DNA of 64,000 bases from a virus (Duplodnaviria; Caudoviricetes), in the IMG/VR virus record IMGVR_UViG_3300024272_002379, one strand, 5' to 3'. Position numbers and translations under genes: made by a program. The notes under the pieces are model-generated. The model did no database searches. It saw only the letters and a list, made by a program, of their open reading frames with translations, and was not told the origin of the DNA. Of this stretch, positions 3,784-16,494 are shown in pieces (the stretch's first letter is position 1; each line of letters begins with the position of its first letter).

Positions 3784-4488
3784 TATTGTGCTTTAAAATG
3801 CACACATATATCCTGGTGAAGATTGTTTAATCAACATGCCAGGGCATATCTACAGTAAGTATGAAATAATATTCGTTACAGGCTTAGCCAGTATGTTTAT
3901 TATGTAATACTGAGACGTATGAGAACATGGGATACTTTGTTCGGTAGTGCGTTTAACGGATATAAATCAAGTCCTAAGGACGTGGTGAAGTTCTGTTATG
4001 AAGAAGGGAACCCTTCAAACGATTGATATGGCGTAACTTATACATAACGATTAGTGTGACATGCTTTTGGTGAACAGAATAGACGCTCTCTGTGAGAGAA
4101 TAACCCTGGGAACTGGATGAGCTGGTAACTCATTACAGATGGCAGGGAATTACCAAACAAGTTCATTCGCTGTGATACCGAGACAACTCGGAGTATAACG
4201 AAAGCATAAGTCGCAAGTAGCCTAAGGCGATAAAAGAGAATATAACAGTGATAAGATGAATGAATGTATCATCAAAACATATTCTGAACGATTCGGGTGA
4301 AAGCTGGAGGTGCCAATCCTTCATGGGTTTTAGACTGATAAAAGGCTGTTAACCTTTATCAGTTGGGGCAAGAAGTATGGAAGTCATGAGCCATGCTCAG
4401 ACTTGTCTCCCCATTCGCATAATAAATCACAATGTATATTTTATAAGATGAATAAAAGTCTATATGGTGTGTGTTTTAAAGCACAATA
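3784..4488 (+). ncRNA. GOLLD-like giant structured RNA
   Basis: 22-bp terminal helix 3784-3805/4467-4488 (2 G.U), ~705 nt, no ORF, in phage tRNA cluster; 3' half resembles GOLLD as I recall it. Confidence 0.7.
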
Positions 4489-13516: not shown

Positions 13517-13523
13517 GTTTTAT

Positions 13524-14238
13524 ACCTTGCTGTATATATATTGGCTTTAATTGGTCAATGAAAATACAACAAATTAGGACAAACCAATCCAGCAGAGAAC
13601 ATTATCAGCATACTACAGGACATAAGCAGGATAGGACATCACAAACGGCTCGTTAGAGCCTTTATATATACAGCAAGGTTGTTGTATAAAGCTCATTATA
13701 GGACAGAATAGCTCATAGCAGATGATATCATTAAAATACATAATAACACAAAGTCTTTTATAATCTCTTATATGTATATCGACTTTAAATGCTTAGAGTC
13801 AATATACATGTAAGAGAGGACAGGACAACTCAGTGCATTTCTACCACAACAAATGACAATGTATAACAAAGCAGAGGGGCGATTTTCGCCCCATTTTTAT
13901 GAATACATATATTGGCTTTAATGGTCAATAGAACAATACAGTGCAGAGCAGTATATAATAGCTCAGTTAAGAATACCATAGCATAACACAAATGGCTCTT
14001 AGAGCCTTTATATGTGTTCATAAATAGATATATTGACTTTAGCAGTCAATAAGCTCAAAAGACCGTAGAACAGGACAGCTCATTACAAAGTAGTTCAGGT
14101 TAAAACAAGCGAAAACAAAGGCTCGTTAGAGTCAATGTATGTGTTTATGAAACACAAAAGCACAAAGACAGCATAATACATGTCAGTGCAACATAGGATA
14201 TTACAAATCATTACAAAATCCTATTGAAAATCAATAGG
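13524..14238 (+). repeat. array of six 5-nt-periodic (NYA-NN)n tracts in repeated hairpin scaffolds; putative guide-RNA array
   Basis: invariant A every 5 nt over 80 units; repeated scaffold arms ATATYGRCTTTA...TTAGAGYC inside long inverted repeats. Confidence 0.9.
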
Positions 14239-14256: not shown

Positions 14257-14913
14257 ATGGCAGCTAAAGTTACAGAAGAAGTAAAAGAGATTCAGAACAA
14301 AATTAATTTCGCTACAGCAACAATTACAATTGTTGGCGATAGTGACCTTATTCTTAACAAAATGAGAGATAGCACTACTCAGGAACTTGCAGATAAACAG
14401 GAAGGTAAAGTACAGGGTACAAAGAAACCTGTAAACATGTACGAGCATCTTGTTGGTTCCATTCATTGGCTCAAGGGAGAAGAAACAGACTATACAGAAG
14501 AAGGCTGGTTGAATGCATTAAAGAATAATGTTCCAGGTTATCCATCTTCAGGTATGAAGAAAGCATTATGTGATGCTGTTGTTCGTGTATTAGGCGAAAC
14601 ATATAGCACAAAGTTCAATGCTAACGTACAGATTCTTAATAGCTTCTTACCAATCGAATTTGGTTCAAGTGCTTATGATAAATCATTATTTAGCCCTCAG
14701 AAGGGTAGTCCAGTTCTTTGTTACAGAAATGTATTCAGAGATTGGAAAACAACATTTACAATTAAATATATTCCAGACAATTATTCATTAGACCGTATCA
14801 TCGAAGTTATTAACTGTGCAGGTTTTGCATGTGGTATCGGTAGCCACAGACCATCAAGTAAAGGTGGCTCCAACGGTATGTTCCACGTAGAATCCGTTAT
14901 GGAAGTAGTTTAA
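14257..14913 (+). CDS. stand-alone Cas7/RAMP-like RNA-binding protein
   Basis: beta1 ITIVGDSDLILN, PSSGMKKAL, YRNVFRDW, C-terminal Gly loop AGFACGIGSHRPSSKGGSNGMF. Confidence 0.8.
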   Translation: MAAKVTEEVKEIQNKINFATATITIVGDSDLILNKMRDSTTQELADKQEGKVQGTKKPVNMYEHLVGSIHWLKGEETDYTEEGWLNALKNNVPGYPSSGMKKALCDAVVRVLGETYSTKFNANVQILNSFLPIEFGSSAYDKSLFSPQKGSPVLCYRNVFRDWKTTFTIKYIPDNYSLDRIIEVINCAGFACGIGSHRPSSKGGSNGMFHVESVMEVV

Positions 14914-14921
14914 GTACATAT

Positions 14922-15650
14922 GGGAAGGAAAACCCTATAATAAACCGCTAAGATGAAGGCAGACCAAGGCTGTTGCAGGACCTGAAAAGGCGTTCGCACT
15001 TAGATGTAATAAAAGCGAAGATTAGGAGACTCATATGCAAAACCCTGACATATGACATGGAGAAATACCGTTGAATGCAACCAGGTAGTTAAGATTTTAT
15101 ACCGACAGAAACGACCGTTACTGCGTAGCTCAAAGTCGGAAGTTTACTTAATTGAAATAAAAAACAAATAGAGAGCAAAGGTAACAGCTAAGATATTACG
15201 ACCTCATGGGTGCCAACCACGCACACGAATCCGTATTAAATCTGACGTAGAGGCAAGTTCACTTAGATGCAATCAAGAACTTTAGCGTGGGTGCTTCACA
15301 ACTGCATAAATATTTTGAGAAGGAAAACTCGCTATCAAACCGCTAGGTTATGGGTCCCTTACCATGTTTAAAGACCTTGAACTCCTAGAGCGTAAGCATT
15401 TGTAACAAAAGTTTTAAAATTGAATAGTGGCTTTAGTGGTTTGATGGAAACCATCTCCCAGGAGGGGACTGGTGCGAATGAACCCAGGAGACAGGACTAA
15501 CTCCTTACACCAGCGAGTCTTGAATTAGACCGCTCGGAGAAACGATGCCCAGCTAAGTTTTCAGAGGGATAAGGTATGCTTTGCAGGAAACCCTCGGTGC
15601 TGTTTGCCTATTTCTCCTACCAGGCTTCTTAGATGCAATAAAAAGACCGA
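14922..15650 (+). ncRNA. array of five related pseudoknot-like RNA units
   Basis: repeated GCTAAG...CTTAGATGYAAT with variable 36-70 nt inserts. Confidence 0.65.
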
Positions 15651-15871
15651 TAAAACAAAATAGGATATAGTTGGTAATATACGTAGTTTCGGGTTCGAGG
15701 AACCATTTTCTGTACCATCCACAGGAATAAACGAAGAGGAATTACAAGTACATTGGCGACAAGGTGTGCGAACAAAGACGACCATTACAGTCATTCATGG
15801 TTAATCGTGTACAAAATGTATGAGAGTATCATATGCACTGCTCTCATACTACTTGTCGAACGAAATAAGTA

Positions 15872-15899
15872 TTGAAATATTTTTCAAATCTGTTACAAT
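15872..15899 (+). promoter_or_regulatory. sigma-A promoter (extended -10)
   Basis: TTGAAA-16-TACAAT with TG; precedes tRNA-Gln. Confidence 0.6.
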
Positions 15900-15912
15900 A
15901 TATAACACATAT

Positions 15913-15984
15913 AGGGCTATCGCCAAGCGGTAAGGCACAGGATTTTGATTCCTGCATCCGTTGGTTCGAATCCAACTAGCCCTG
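15913..15984 (+). tRNA. tRNA-Gln(TTG)
   Basis: CAGGA-TTTTGAT-TCCTG. Confidence 0.93.
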
Positions 15985-16069
15985 TTCATAGTGGTCAGTG
16001 TTAATGCACACTGTAAATAAAGTAGCCTCTCGATTGGCTTTCAATGGTCAGCTTTAACCACTATAACAT

Positions 16070-16244: not shown

Positions 16245-16259
16245 TTAAAGACCAAGCAA

Positions 16260-16332
16260 AGGTAAGTAGCTCAGTTGGGAGAGCACCCTGCATTGAGCGG
16301 GGTCGTCGCAGGTTCGAGTCCTGCCTTGTCTT
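16260..16332 (+). tRNA. atypical tRNA (loop CATTGAG, nominal TTG; identity uncertain)
   Basis: canonical D/T arms, A at position 33, two G.U in acceptor. Confidence 0.6.
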
Positions 16333-16494
16333 GATATAAGCTGAAGTCTTGAAGCCAAGTATAGTCATGCGGTGGGTGGATATTTACATTAGGTCCAATG
16401 AGATTAGACTTTAGTATCTATCAAATAGAACTGTTGACTAAAAATAATGCCCAGCAAAAACCATATGCTGGGCTATTTTATTGGAGGAAATTAT

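What the first reader, a model, noticed from the sequence alone, without database searches (positions are those of the whole stretch)
14922..15650. Second array of five related pseudoknot-like RNAs right after the RAMP gene
Seen: arm pairs GCTAAG 14947/CTTAGATGTAAT 14999; GTTAAG 15088/CTTAATTGAAAT 15147; GCTAAG 15187/CTTAGATGCAAT 15262; GCTAGG 15342/CCTAG 15384; GCTAAG 15552/CTTAGATGCAAT 15628. The changes in units 2 and 4 are compensatory. Inserts are 36-70 nt and unrelated to each other. Bases just 5' of the right arm pair downstream (TTCGC/GCGAA; AAGTTC/GAACTT), giving an H-type pseudoknot. Units 1 and 4 share a leader GRGAAGGAAAACYC..AAACCGCTA. Inference: an unknown ncRNA family, such as guides for another protein, antitoxin or decoy mimics, or nuclease-blocking elements.
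Basis: partly seen in the sequence, partly recalled or inferred. Interest (0 to 1): 0.72.

Follow-up and report, generated by a model that had tools for sequence, protein, structure and literature searches.

The report
New pseudoknot RNA family beside vipr
The five units are real members of an undescribed family of small structured phage RNAs, each a conserved hairpin plus a pseudoknot around a variable middle part; they lie just after the gene of a newly discovered CRISPR-like phage system (VIPR), but they are not its guide RNAs and their role is unknown.

Summary
Window 14922-15650 holds five co-oriented units. Each has an S1 stem, G(C/U)UA(A/G)G paired with C(U/C)UA(G/A). S1 encloses a 36-70 nt unit-specific insert and is followed by the A-rich loop RUGYAAYAAA. 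Bases just 5' of the right arm usually pair after that loop (S2), giving an H-type pseudoknot. Units 1 and 4 also carry a 5' hairpin with the invariant loop AAGGAAAA.

I found 44 such units in 13 contigs of one clade of about 210-kb uncultured phages.
- S1 pairs in 44 of 44 units, in three covarying forms.
- The 5' hairpin stem covaries (0 of 500 shuffles reach it).
- S2 is longer than in any of 2000 shuffles.

Rfam 15 has no match. There is no 5-nt periodicity, so these are not VIPR guide RNAs. They are also not tRNAs, CRISPR repeats or coding sequence.

In 10 contigs the array starts just downstream of vipr or its accessory genes and ends before tRNA-Gln. Single units also lie among tRNAs, and one contig carries units without vipr.

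Best reading (about 0.4): processed, end-locked small RNAs with a shared scaffold and an exchangeable middle domain. A direct role in VIPR is about 0.3. Earlier notes of this scan covered the neighbouring VIPR locus, not this family.

The parts
14257..14913 (+). vipr (lone Cas7/RAMP-like gene of a VIPR system). The array starts 8 nt after its stop codon.
   Evidence: ORF. A 42%-identical homologue, P0119, carries Pfam PF03787 (RAMP). tblastn matches the gene flanked by GGYNN arrays in the SUSP1-like phage ESCO56. VIPR is described in bioRxiv 10.64898/2026.04.26.720920.
14922..15019 (+). Unit W1, complete. P1 hairpin 14922-14935 (GGG, loop AAGGAAAA, CCC); linker J 14936-14946; S1-5' 14947-14952; insert L1 14953-14992; S2-5' 14993-14997; A 14998; S1-3' 14999-15003; L3 15004-15014; S2-3' 15015-15019.
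   Evidence: R1 scores 55 bits. Orthologues in L054, L029, L041, L072, L078 and L079 show S1 and S2 covariation.
15020..15087 (+). Spacer conserved among relatives. AGGAG motif within 15023-15030; covarying hairpin CATATG 15032-15037 / 15049-15054; type-2 leader hairpin 15066-15087.
   Evidence: The hairpin arms differ but stay complementary in L054, L029 and L041.
15088..15165 (+). Unit W2. S1-5' GTTAAG 15088-15093; L1 15094-15141; S2-5' GTTT 15142-15145; S1-3' CTTAA 15147-15151; L3 15152-15161; S2-3' AAAC 15162-15165.
   Evidence: The C-to-U change in the left arm is matched by G-to-A in the right arm. Orthologues with a stronger S2: L079 GATGTTT/AAACATC and L041 GTGATTTG/CAAATCAC.
15170..15290 (+). 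Unit W3. Degenerate leader 15170-15186; S1-5' 15187-15192; L1 15193-15254; S2 AAGTTC 15255-15260 / GAACTT 15277-15282; S1-3' 15262-15266; L3 15267-15276; outer stem CCACGC 15217-15222 / GCGTGG 15285-15290.
   Evidence: The orthologue in G002 (L002:6089-6212) keeps a full P1 hairpin, and an inner L1 stem covaries (CCUC/GAGG against GCC/GGC).
15317..15397 (+). Unit W4. P1 15317-15330 (GAG, loop AAGGAAAA, CTC); J 15331-15341; S1-5' GCTAGG 15342-15347; L1 15348-15383; S1-3' CCTAG 15384-15388; then a small hairpin GC-GTAA-GC 15390-15397 in place of the usual L3 and S2.
   Evidence: (50 bits). The same GCUAGG/CCUAG double change occurs independently in L072 with a canonical L3. The same variant tail is seen in L002:5973-5993.
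15398..15551 (+). Extra structured segment absent from G002. It contains TAGTGGTTTGAT 15434-15445, a perfect complement of ATCAAACCGCTA 15334-15345.
   Evidence: I19. Comparison with L002:6232-6385.
15552..15648 (+). Unit W5. S1-5' 15552-15557; L1 15558-15622; S1-3' 15628-15632; L3 15633-15642; weak S2 GGCTT 15623-15627 / AAGACC 15643-15648 with one bulge.
   Evidence: Orthologues in L077, L078 and L079 have GUUAAG/CUUAA with S2 GGCU/AGCC.
15649..15860 (+). 3' end of the non-coding transcript. tRNA-like fragment about 15660-15710; closing hairpin 15811-15826 / 15841-15856.
   Evidence: (I6). Partly conserved in G002.
15872..15985 (+). Sigma-70-like promoter (TTGAAA-16-TACAAT, 15872-15899) and tRNA-Gln 15912-15985, which bound the array on its 3' side.

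Best explanation
The region encodes five paralogous members of an undescribed family of small phage RNAs, transcribed on the + strand as the untranslated continuation of the vipr transcript.

A full unit has three parts.
1. A short 5' hairpin (P1) whose stem covaries and whose loop is always AAGGAAAA (or AAGGAWA), followed by an A-rich linker ending in AACC.
2. An H-type pseudoknot. S1 is G(C/U)UA(A/G)G paired with C(U/C)UA(G/A). S2 is the 3-8 bases just 5' of the right arm, paired with bases after the loop. L3 is the conserved A-rich loop RUGYAAYAAA.
3. A unit-specific insert (L1) of 9-100 nt, held inside S1.

Shown: the structure, its conservation, its strand and its genomic distribution.

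Inferred:
- Host RNases cut the long transcript into separate RNAs of about 90-170 nt.
- P1 (a purine-rich, Shine-Dalgarno-like 5' element) and the pseudoknot (a 3' cap of the vrRNA-tail or triple-helix kind) lock both ends and make each RNA long-lived.
- The shared scaffold, which is strongly sequence-conserved, is a recognition surface for one protein partner.
- The exchangeable L1 is the part that differs in function between paralogues.

They do not use the VIPR 5-nt guide code. The most likely role is as stable protein-binding RNAs, such as sponges, decoys or accessory RNP parts. The partner is not identified.
For: Structure:
- P1 is 100% paired, with 2 of 3 pairs covarying and 0 of 500 shuffles reaching the score.
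- S1 is 100% paired in the tool count and in 44 of 44 units, in three concordant variants.
- The C:G to U:A change arose repeatedly within orthologous unit types: W2 against L054/L041/L029, L041 type 1, and type 5 in L077-L079.
- S2 totals 192 bp against 160.9 +/- 6.6 in shuffles. 20 units have 5 bp or more against 10.6 expected, and S2 covaries among orthologues (TTCGC/GCGAA, TTGC/GCAA, ACTGC/GCAGT; GTGATTTG/CAAATCAC against GTGGCTTG/CAAACCAC).
- G-U pairs work only on the + strand.

Minimal units: G002 (L014:5438-5495) and L079:2913 are just P1 plus a compact pseudoknot with a 9-nt L1.

Modularity:
- The same leader is joined to different inserts (W1 against L002:5907).
- L1 is replaced wholesale between subclades in type 2.
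- About 205 nt is inserted between the W4 leader and the W5 body.

Co-transcription: there is no promoter or terminator between vipr and W1. The array starts 4-8 nt after the vipr stop in the window, L078, L079 and L080.

tRNA-like placement: single units lie between tRNA genes.

P1-J alone sits about 10 nt downstream of sigma-70-like promoters at L001:660-720, L073:7805-7885 and L022. This fits a 5'-end element.

The phage uses strong AGGAGG ribosome sites. This fits a Firmicute-type host, where purine-rich 5' stabilisers are known (from my own knowledge: the SP82 polypurine element and the cryIIIA STAB-SD element).
Against: - There are no expression or end-mapping data.
- Single-sequence folding energies are not better than shuffles.
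- S2 is short or absent in about a third of units, including W4 and W5.
- P1 has decayed in W3 and W5, so it is dispensable.
- The constant position next to vipr (10 contigs) may mean a dedicated VIPR role rather than independence.
- No partner protein or target was identified.
- The stabiliser and cap roles are analogies, not tests.
Confidence: 0.4

Rival explanations
1. The units are a second, non-guide RNA component of this clade's VIPR system. They are made from the vipr transcript and bind Vipr or an accessory protein through the pseudoknot. Possible roles are a cap, an assembly regulator, a competitor of foreign vrRNAs, or a decoy for rival phages' Vipr.
For: - In 10 of 13 contigs the array lies directly downstream of vipr or its accessory genes, often 4-8 nt after the stop codon: window, G002, L029, L041, L054, L073, L077-L080.
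- L045 lacks both vipr and the array yet keeps tRNA-Gln.
- In SUSP1, vrRNAs lie both upstream and downstream of the genes.
- Canonical type II vrRNAs end in an H-type pseudoknot of the same topology, with a 1-nt L2 and an A-rich L3. I read it in ESCO56 as GUAG-UCA-GUCUCA-G-CUAC-AUUAAAA-UGAGAC.
Against: - There is no 5-nt periodic tract. No position in a 5-nt frame exceeds 62% identity in any insert, against an invariant A in four of the six tracts of array 1.
- The vrRNAs of this Vipr subfamily are bracketed by long stems and have no such pseudoknot.
- G001 has vipr but no downstream array. In L072 a terminator follows vipr.
- Vipr homologues at 50%, 42% and 32% identity have no units within 6 kb.
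- Units also lie 3-8 kb away among tRNAs.
- All array-bearing contigs belong to one clade, so inherited gene order explains the position equally well.
Confidence: 0.3
2. The units are decoys that mimic an RNA ligand of a host defence ribonuclease. The model is type III antitoxins (ToxI, CptI, TenpI) and the pseudo-ToxI arrays of phages: tandem pseudoknots that bind and neutralise the toxin.
For: - They are tandem H-type pseudoknots with a conserved A-rich loop, suited to A-minor or triplex contacts, as in CptI (PMC4627078).
- Phage-encoded antitoxin mimics are an established precedent (from my own knowledge: phage PhiTE).
- S1 and L3 are strongly sequence-conserved, which fits protein recognition.
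Against: - The units are not identical and not of fixed length. L1 is 9-100 nt, against 1 nt in CptI.
- Each has an extra P1 hairpin, and unit-specific spacers separate them.
- No ToxN-family gene is present in G001 or G002, although that search was uninformative because its controls were also silent.
- The motif was found in none of 185,579 prokaryote species genomes. All 12 pattern hits lacked the hairpin or the right arm, and one I read lies inside the L35 gene.
Confidence: 0.12
3. The units are only cis-acting punctuation. They are structured spacers that guide RNase processing and protect the vipr mRNA and neighbouring tRNA precursors from exonucleases, and the released pieces have no function of their own.
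For: - They occupy the 3' untranslated position after vipr and lie between tRNAs.
- P1-J occurs alone at the 5' ends of a tRNA-Gln transcript.
- The island also contains a tmRNA, ROOL and many tRNAs.
Against: - Unit-specific inserts are conserved between orthologues at about 78% identity, close to the 84% of vipr itself.
- Five or six different units are kept in the same order across genomes.
- The loop sequences AAGGAAAA and RUGYAAYAAA are more conserved than a plain stabiliser would need.
Confidence: 0.1
4. The scaffold is a new small self-cleaving ribozyme or ligand-binding aptamer that separates the units, like the hammerhead-interspersed arrays reported for other VIPR types.
For: - About 30 near-invariant positions are spread over a hairpin loop, a linker, a stem and a loop, which is typical of compact catalytic or ligand-binding folds.
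- Ribozyme-separated arrays exist in VIPR types I and V.
Against: - There is no match to any Rfam ribozyme or riboswitch even at E up to 5.
- P1 is dispensable in several units.
- No expression platform or downstream gene is present.
Confidence: 0.06

Closest known systems
3' pseudoknot 'tail' of type II VIPR guide RNAs (vrRNAs) of Escherichia phage SUSP1 and relatives (bioRxiv 10.64898/2026.04.26.720920 and 10.64898/2026.04.26.720927)
   Same: An H-type pseudoknot with a 1-nt L2 and an A-rich L3. It occurs in arrays flanking vipr and is encoded by phages. In the cryo-EM structures it is reported to cap the RNA 3' end.
   Different: - There is no preceding tract of 5-nt repeats.
- L1 is 9-100 nt instead of 3.
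- Stems and loops share no sequence with the SUSP1 tail.
- There is an extra 5' hairpin.
- The guide RNAs of this very Vipr subfamily lack such a tail.
Type III toxin-antitoxin RNA antitoxins (ToxI, CptI, TenpI) and phage pseudo-ToxI
   Same: Tandem arrays of H-type pseudoknots with A-rich loops (CptI L2 AUAUAAAUG against RUGYAAYAAA here). Phages are known to carry mimics (own knowledge).
   Different: Antitoxin repeats are near-identical and of fixed length (34-45 nt), and they are cut by the adjacent toxin. Here the units differ, are 65-170 nt long, have P1 and long L1 inserts, and no toxin gene is present.
Stable non-tRNA RNAs in phage tRNA clusters (T4 species 1 and 2 RNAs; ROOL and GOLLD RNAs)
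   Same: Structured RNAs of unknown function interleaved with phage tRNA genes and probably released by tRNA-processing enzymes. ROOL itself is at 3788-4481 of this window.
   Different: Unrelated sequence and fold. These units are much smaller than ROOL, modular and repeated.
Purine-rich 5' stabilisers of Firmicute and phage RNAs (SP82 polypurine element, cryIIIA STAB-SD), recalled from memory and not tested
   Same: A Shine-Dalgarno-like purine run (AAGGA) near the 5' end of an untranslated RNA. P1-J sits about 10 nt after promoters in three places.
   Different: Here the purine run is the loop of a covarying hairpin, and it also occurs inside polycistronic arrays. Ribosome binding is untested.

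Membership tests
VIPR guide RNA (vrRNA) | Tract of 9-16 tandem 5-nt units with a fixed trinucleotide (GGY or a related consensus) alternating with variable NN | tested here: not met
   Lag-5 self-match is 0.16-0.26 in all five inserts, against 0.33 (lag 5) and 0.38 (lag 10) in array 1. No position in a 5-nt frame exceeds 62% identity, against an invariant A in four of the six tracts of array 1.
VIPR guide RNA (vrRNA) | Encoded next to vipr | tested here: met
   The array starts 8 nt after the vipr stop. The position is the same in 9 further contigs.
VIPR guide RNA (vrRNA) | Conserved 3' tail (a pseudoknot in the SUSP1 clade) directly after the repeat tract | tested here: inconclusive
   A pseudoknot of the same topology is present, but it is not preceded by a tract and shares no sequence with the tail. 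The true vrRNAs of this subfamily are stem-bracketed instead.
VIPR guide RNA (vrRNA) | Co-purifies with Vipr | not testable with these tools
   Needs a pull-down followed by RNA sequencing.
Type III antitoxin RNA | Near-identical direct repeats of fixed length (about 34-45 nt) | tested here: not met
   Units are 65-170 nt with inserts of 9-100 nt. Tandem and direct-repeat search finds only the short shared motifs.
Type III antitoxin RNA | Adjacent endoribonuclease toxin gene (ToxN, CptN or TenpN) | tested here: not met
   The neighbours are vipr, tRNA-Gln and small ORFs without Pfam hits. PF13958 was not found in G001 or G002, though the control genomes were also silent.
Type III antitoxin RNA | H-type pseudoknot fold | tested here: met
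   S1 and S2 are supported by covariation and shuffles.
Any Rfam 15 family (including ribozymes, riboswitches and tRNA) | Covariance-model score at or near the gathering threshold | tested here: not met
   Nothing falls within 14915-15900 at the gathering threshold or at E up to 5. ARAGORN finds no tRNA there.
CRISPR array or RNA anti-CRISPR (solitary repeat units) | Contiguous direct repeats of 28-37 nt with regular spacing | tested here: not met
   The longest shared block is 17 nt, in three copies spaced 263 and 366 nt apart (D8). The conserved parts are split around the insert.
Protein-coding sequence | Conserved open reading frame | tested here: not met
   No + strand ORF of 40 aa or more lies in 14915-15750. 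The 77-aa minus-strand ORF 15561-15794 is not conserved in relatives.

The most novel reading that the evidence does not exclude
The P1-pseudoknot RNAs are a second RNA class of a VIPR subtype. They would be scaffolded, non-guide RNAs made from the vipr transcript that bind Vipr or its accessory proteins, with single copies in the tRNA island acting in trans. Possible roles are to control filament assembly, to shield the phage's own system from hijacking by foreign solo vrRNAs, or to disarm rival phages' VIPR. This would be an RNA-level regulator or counter-measure within the newly found VIPR conflict, and the three VIPR preprints I searched do not mention one.
Probability: 0.25. Interest if true: 0.85.

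Novelty: new variant of a known kind. Interest (0 to 1): 0.66.

Why it matters
VIPR was first described in 2026, and its known RNA component is the 5-nt-periodic guide. This report shows a different, well-supported structured RNA family kept directly after vipr in ten related phage genomes. The three preprints I searched do not mention it, and Rfam has no match.

If the family works with Vipr, it adds a new layer to that system: regulation, capping or counter-defence. If it does not, it is still a compact, modular pseudoknot scaffold with an exchangeable internal domain. Phages keep it in several copies among their tRNAs, so it is a candidate stable-RNA scaffold and a new entry for RNA family databases.

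Either way the structure model is precise enough to test directly by small-RNA sequencing, a Vipr pull-down and compensatory mutagenesis.

Tried and rejected
1. Rfam at the gathering threshold and at E up to 5: no match in the region.
2. tRNA or tmRNA: none in the array.
3. VIPR guide tract: no 5-nt periodicity.
4. Coding sequence: no conserved ORF on either strand.
5. Targets of the inserts: blastn-short of the array against the rest of the window, both strands, gave a best E of 0.19. blastn against 50,697 GenBank phage records matched only the tRNA-Gln.
6. Pattern scans.
   - Viral contigs gave only G001 and G002, plus a leader-only relative (L022) and coding false positives (L017, L023, L024 read as an EGKPxKPVK peptide; L018, L021, L025 lack the hairpin).
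   - L004 is probably a chance match at a contig end.
   - The metagenome scan gave 30 loci, of which four are true family members (L029, L041, L045, L054) and L032 is a leader-only relative.
   - The scan of 185,579 prokaryote species genomes gave 12 loci, none convincing. L066 lies inside rpmI.
7. The more distant phage G003 (PolIII 46%, Vipr 32%): the R1 hit at 79688 appears to lie in coding sequence, and its VIPR has an ordinary GGY/NN array.
8. ToxN family in G001 and G002: none, but the search was uninformative.
9. CsrA-type or Shine-Dalgarno-type motif enrichment: AGGA occurs 12 times against 5.5 +/- 2.4. This is suggestive only, being one of several motifs tried.
10. Resemblances of P1 and the W1 insert to SRP RNA domain IV, lambda boxB and the fluoride riboswitch were considered from memory. 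I dropped them because orthologues do not conserve the matching bases and Rfam gives no hit.
11. A nested alternative for W3 (GCUAAG with UUUAGC 15281-15286) is not conserved in G002.
Full report
**What is there.** Window 14915-15860 is a gene-free stretch. It lies between a 218-aa gene (14257-14913, + strand) and a promoter plus tRNA-Gln at 15872-15985. The window comes from a large phage: it carries a tmRNA, a ROOL RNA, 12 tRNAs, a PolIII alpha subunit, RecA and a primase. No whole genome is held for it.

So are the two clear downstream pairings, TTCGC/GCGAA and AAGTTC/GAACTT, and the leader shared by units 1 and 4. On one sequence alone this would not be convincing. The arms are only 5-6 nt, and the folding energies of the five units are no better than shuffled sequence, with z from -0.6 to +1.1.

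**Relatives.** The neighbouring protein led to two complete phage contigs of about 210 kb, G001 and G002. A DNA pattern built from the leader found four metagenome contigs: L029, L041, L045 and L054. Homologues of the neighbouring protein led to six more: L072, L073 and L077-L080.

Across these 13 contigs I catalogued 44 units. The consensus unit reads, 5' to 3':
- P1, a 3-5 bp hairpin with loop AAGGAAAA (sometimes AAGGAAA, AAGGAUA or AAAGAAA);
- J, an A-rich linker ending AAACC or AACCC;
- S1-5', G(C/U)UA(A/G)G;
- L1, an insert of 9-100 nt;
- S2-5', 3-8 nt;
- usually a single A;
- S1-3', C(U/C)UA(G/A);
- L3, RUGYAAYAAA(A);
- S2-3'.

**Statistical support.**
- P1 is paired in 100% of cells, and two of its three pairs covary (GC, CG, AU and UA at the outer pair). 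No shuffle out of 500 reaches this, and sliding the partner by one column destroys it. Three units with 7-nt loops were left out of that count only because MAFFT put their hairpins out of register. Read directly, their stems are perfect: GGG/CCC, UAGAG/CUCUG and GAG/CUC.
- S1 is 100% paired in the 12-sequence full-unit alignment, with 5 of 500 shuffles reaching it. Across all 44 units the left and right variants agree every time: 32 GCUAAG/CUUAG, 10 GUUAAG/CUUAA and 2 GCUAGG/CCUAG.
- The double changes arose several times within otherwise orthologous unit types. Examples are W2 against its orthologues in L054, L041 and L029; the type-1 unit of L041; the type-5 units of L077-L079 against W5 and G002; and W4 and L072:9284 for the second position.
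- S2 is less regular. The summed best stem is 192 bp against 160.9 +/- 6.6 in 2000 shuffles, whose maximum is 183. Twenty units have 5 bp or more against 10.6 expected, and 12 have 6 bp or more against 4.3. S2 covaries among orthologues, but about a third of units have 3 bp or fewer. In the window those are W4 (only a 4-bp TGAA/TTTG match with G-U pairs, which I do not count as S2) and W5.
- G-U pairs in P1 and S2 would be C-A mismatches on the other strand. All units point the same way as the genes and tRNAs, so the structure is selected at the RNA level on the + strand.

**What it is not.**
- Rfam 15 gives nothing in the region, even at E up to 5, and ARAGORN finds no tRNA there.
- There is no conserved ORF on either strand.
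- The longest contiguous repeat is 17 nt at irregular spacing, so it is not a CRISPR array or a solitary-repeat mimic.

**The VIPR context.** Earlier notes of this scan identified the upstream array (13520-14215) and the 218-aa protein as a VIPR system. I checked this lead in part.
- The preprints exist and describe Vipr, a lone RAMP protein, working with vrRNAs made of 5-nt units.
- A 42%-identical homologue carries Pfam PF03787.
- The protein matches the gene flanked by GGYNN arrays in the SUSP1-like phage ESCO56.

Array 1 has the expected periodicity: an invariant A in four of its six 5-nt-phased tracts, and self-match of 0.33 at lag 5 and 0.38 at lag 10. The five inserts of array 2 have none. 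Array 2 is therefore not a set of VIPR guides.

**Relation to VIPR, for and against.**

For a link:
- In ten contigs the array sits directly downstream of vipr or its accessory genes. It starts 4-8 nt after the stop codon in four of them, and always ends before tRNA-Gln.
- L045 lacks both vipr and the array while keeping tRNA-Gln.
- SUSP1 has vrRNAs on both sides of its genes.
- Canonical vrRNAs end in an H-type pseudoknot with a 1-nt L2 and an A-rich L3. That topology is the same as here.

Against a link:
- The true guide RNAs of this Vipr subfamily are bracketed by long stems and have no such pseudoknot.
- G001 has vipr but no array after it. In L072 a terminator follows vipr, and the units lie 2.6-5.6 kb away.
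- Vipr homologues at 50%, 42% and 32% identity have no units nearby.
- Single units lie among tRNAs 3-8 kb from vipr in G001, G002 and L079, and in L045 without any vipr.
- Every array-bearing contig belongs to one clade, so inherited gene order is a sufficient explanation.

I put a direct VIPR role at about 0.3.

**Modularity.**
- Orthologous units keep their inserts. Across the array the window is about 78% identical to L054, against 84% for vipr. The inserts are therefore not hypervariable spacers.
- Modules are nevertheless exchanged. W1 and G002 unit A share an identical 34-nt leader but have unrelated inserts and tails. The type-2 insert differs completely between subclades. The window also has about 205 extra nt between the W4 leader and the W5 body, which are joined directly in G002.
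- In L078, five of six units carry a recognisable P1-J leader, whereas in the window only two of five do. W3 and W5 have therefore lost theirs.
- P1-J also occurs alone about 10 nt downstream of sigma-70-like promoters. One copy lies in front of a tRNA-Gln (L073:7805-7885). Another lies in front of an unrelated RNA in a different phage, L022.
- Two minimal units, L014:5438-5495 and L079:2913, are just P1 plus a compact pseudoknot with a 9-nt L1.

**How it most likely works.** The structure, strand and distribution are shown. The rest is inferred.

My best reading (confidence about 0.4) is as follows. The long untranslated transcript is cut into separate small RNAs. In each RNA, P1 at the 5' side and the pseudoknot at the 3' side lock both ends. 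The sequence-conserved scaffold (P1 loop, S1 and L3) is recognised by one partner. L1 gives each paralogue its own property.

The end-protection idea rests on two analogies only. [quoted passage not shown] The other, from memory, is the purine-rich 5' stabilisers of Firmicute and phage RNAs. The phage's strong AGGAGG ribosome sites fit such a host.

The rivals are:
- a VIPR accessory RNA (0.3);
- a decoy for a host ribonuclease, in the manner of type III antitoxins (0.12);
- pure cis-acting punctuation (0.1);
- a new ribozyme or aptamer (0.06).

**Novelty and verdict.** The family matches nothing in Rfam, the GenBank phage records or the prokaryote species genomes searched. The three VIPR preprints I searched do not mention it. 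It fails the defining tests for vrRNAs, type III antitoxins, CRISPR repeats and tRNAs.

Its nearest analogues are phage tandem pseudoknot RNAs, so I class it as a new variant of a known kind: the RNA family is new and its function is open.

Noticed in passing
window 15348-15551: About 205 nt lie between the W4 leader and the W5 body. They are absent from G002, where leader and body are joined directly. The segment is flanked by GCTA repeats. It holds TAGTGGTTTGAT (15434-15445), a perfect 12-nt complement of the W4 linker and left arm (15334-15345), which could compete with S1.
   Followed up: partly
window 15660-15710: A tRNA-like fragment: a D-arm-like AGTTGGTAATAT and a T-arm-like GGTTCGAGGAACC. 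It is partly conserved in G002 and is not called by ARAGORN or Rfam.
   Followed up: no
L054:676-822 (minus strand); L073:2724-2846: A conserved ORF of about 40 aa (motif YxLQDGWGGSSxPWDDxEDNxAPGWPS) lies between vipr and the first unit in two relatives. In L054 its last codons run through P1 and J. It is absent from the window.
   Followed up: no
L073:7805-7885; L001:614-650; L022 (minus strand, about 1955-2000): The P1-J leader occurs without a pseudoknot. In L073 (before a tRNA-Gln) and L022 (before an unrelated RNA in another phage, G005) it directly follows a sigma-70-like promoter. The L001:614-650 copy lies just upstream of the promoter of unit G1a.
   Followed up: partly
L071:3146-3732 (minus strand; contig G003): A more distant 200-kb phage (Vipr 32% identical) has an ordinary GGY/NN vrRNA array directly downstream of vipr and no P1-pseudoknot units.
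   Followed up: partly
L045 (14.4-kb contig): A member of the same clade has two units in its tRNA island. It has neither vipr nor the array in front of tRNA-Gln.
   Followed up: partly
window 14915-15860: AGGA occurs 12 times, against 5.5 +/- 2.4 in equal-sized windows, often as CAGGA or AAGGA. This could reflect Shine-Dalgarno-like or CsrA-type sites, or only purine richness.
   Followed up: partly
window 16259-16333: A second tRNA-Gln(UUG) has a weak score (47 bits) and an imperfect acceptor stem, 270 nt after the first.
   Followed up: no
window 13520-14151; L072:5440-5900; L074:5290-5930: The guide RNAs of this Vipr subfamily are each enclosed by inverted repeats of about 25 nt (TATATTGGCTTTAA ... 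TTAGAGCCTTTATATA). These are likely RNase III substrates. The layout is the same in relatives with 50-65% identical Vipr.
   Followed up: partly
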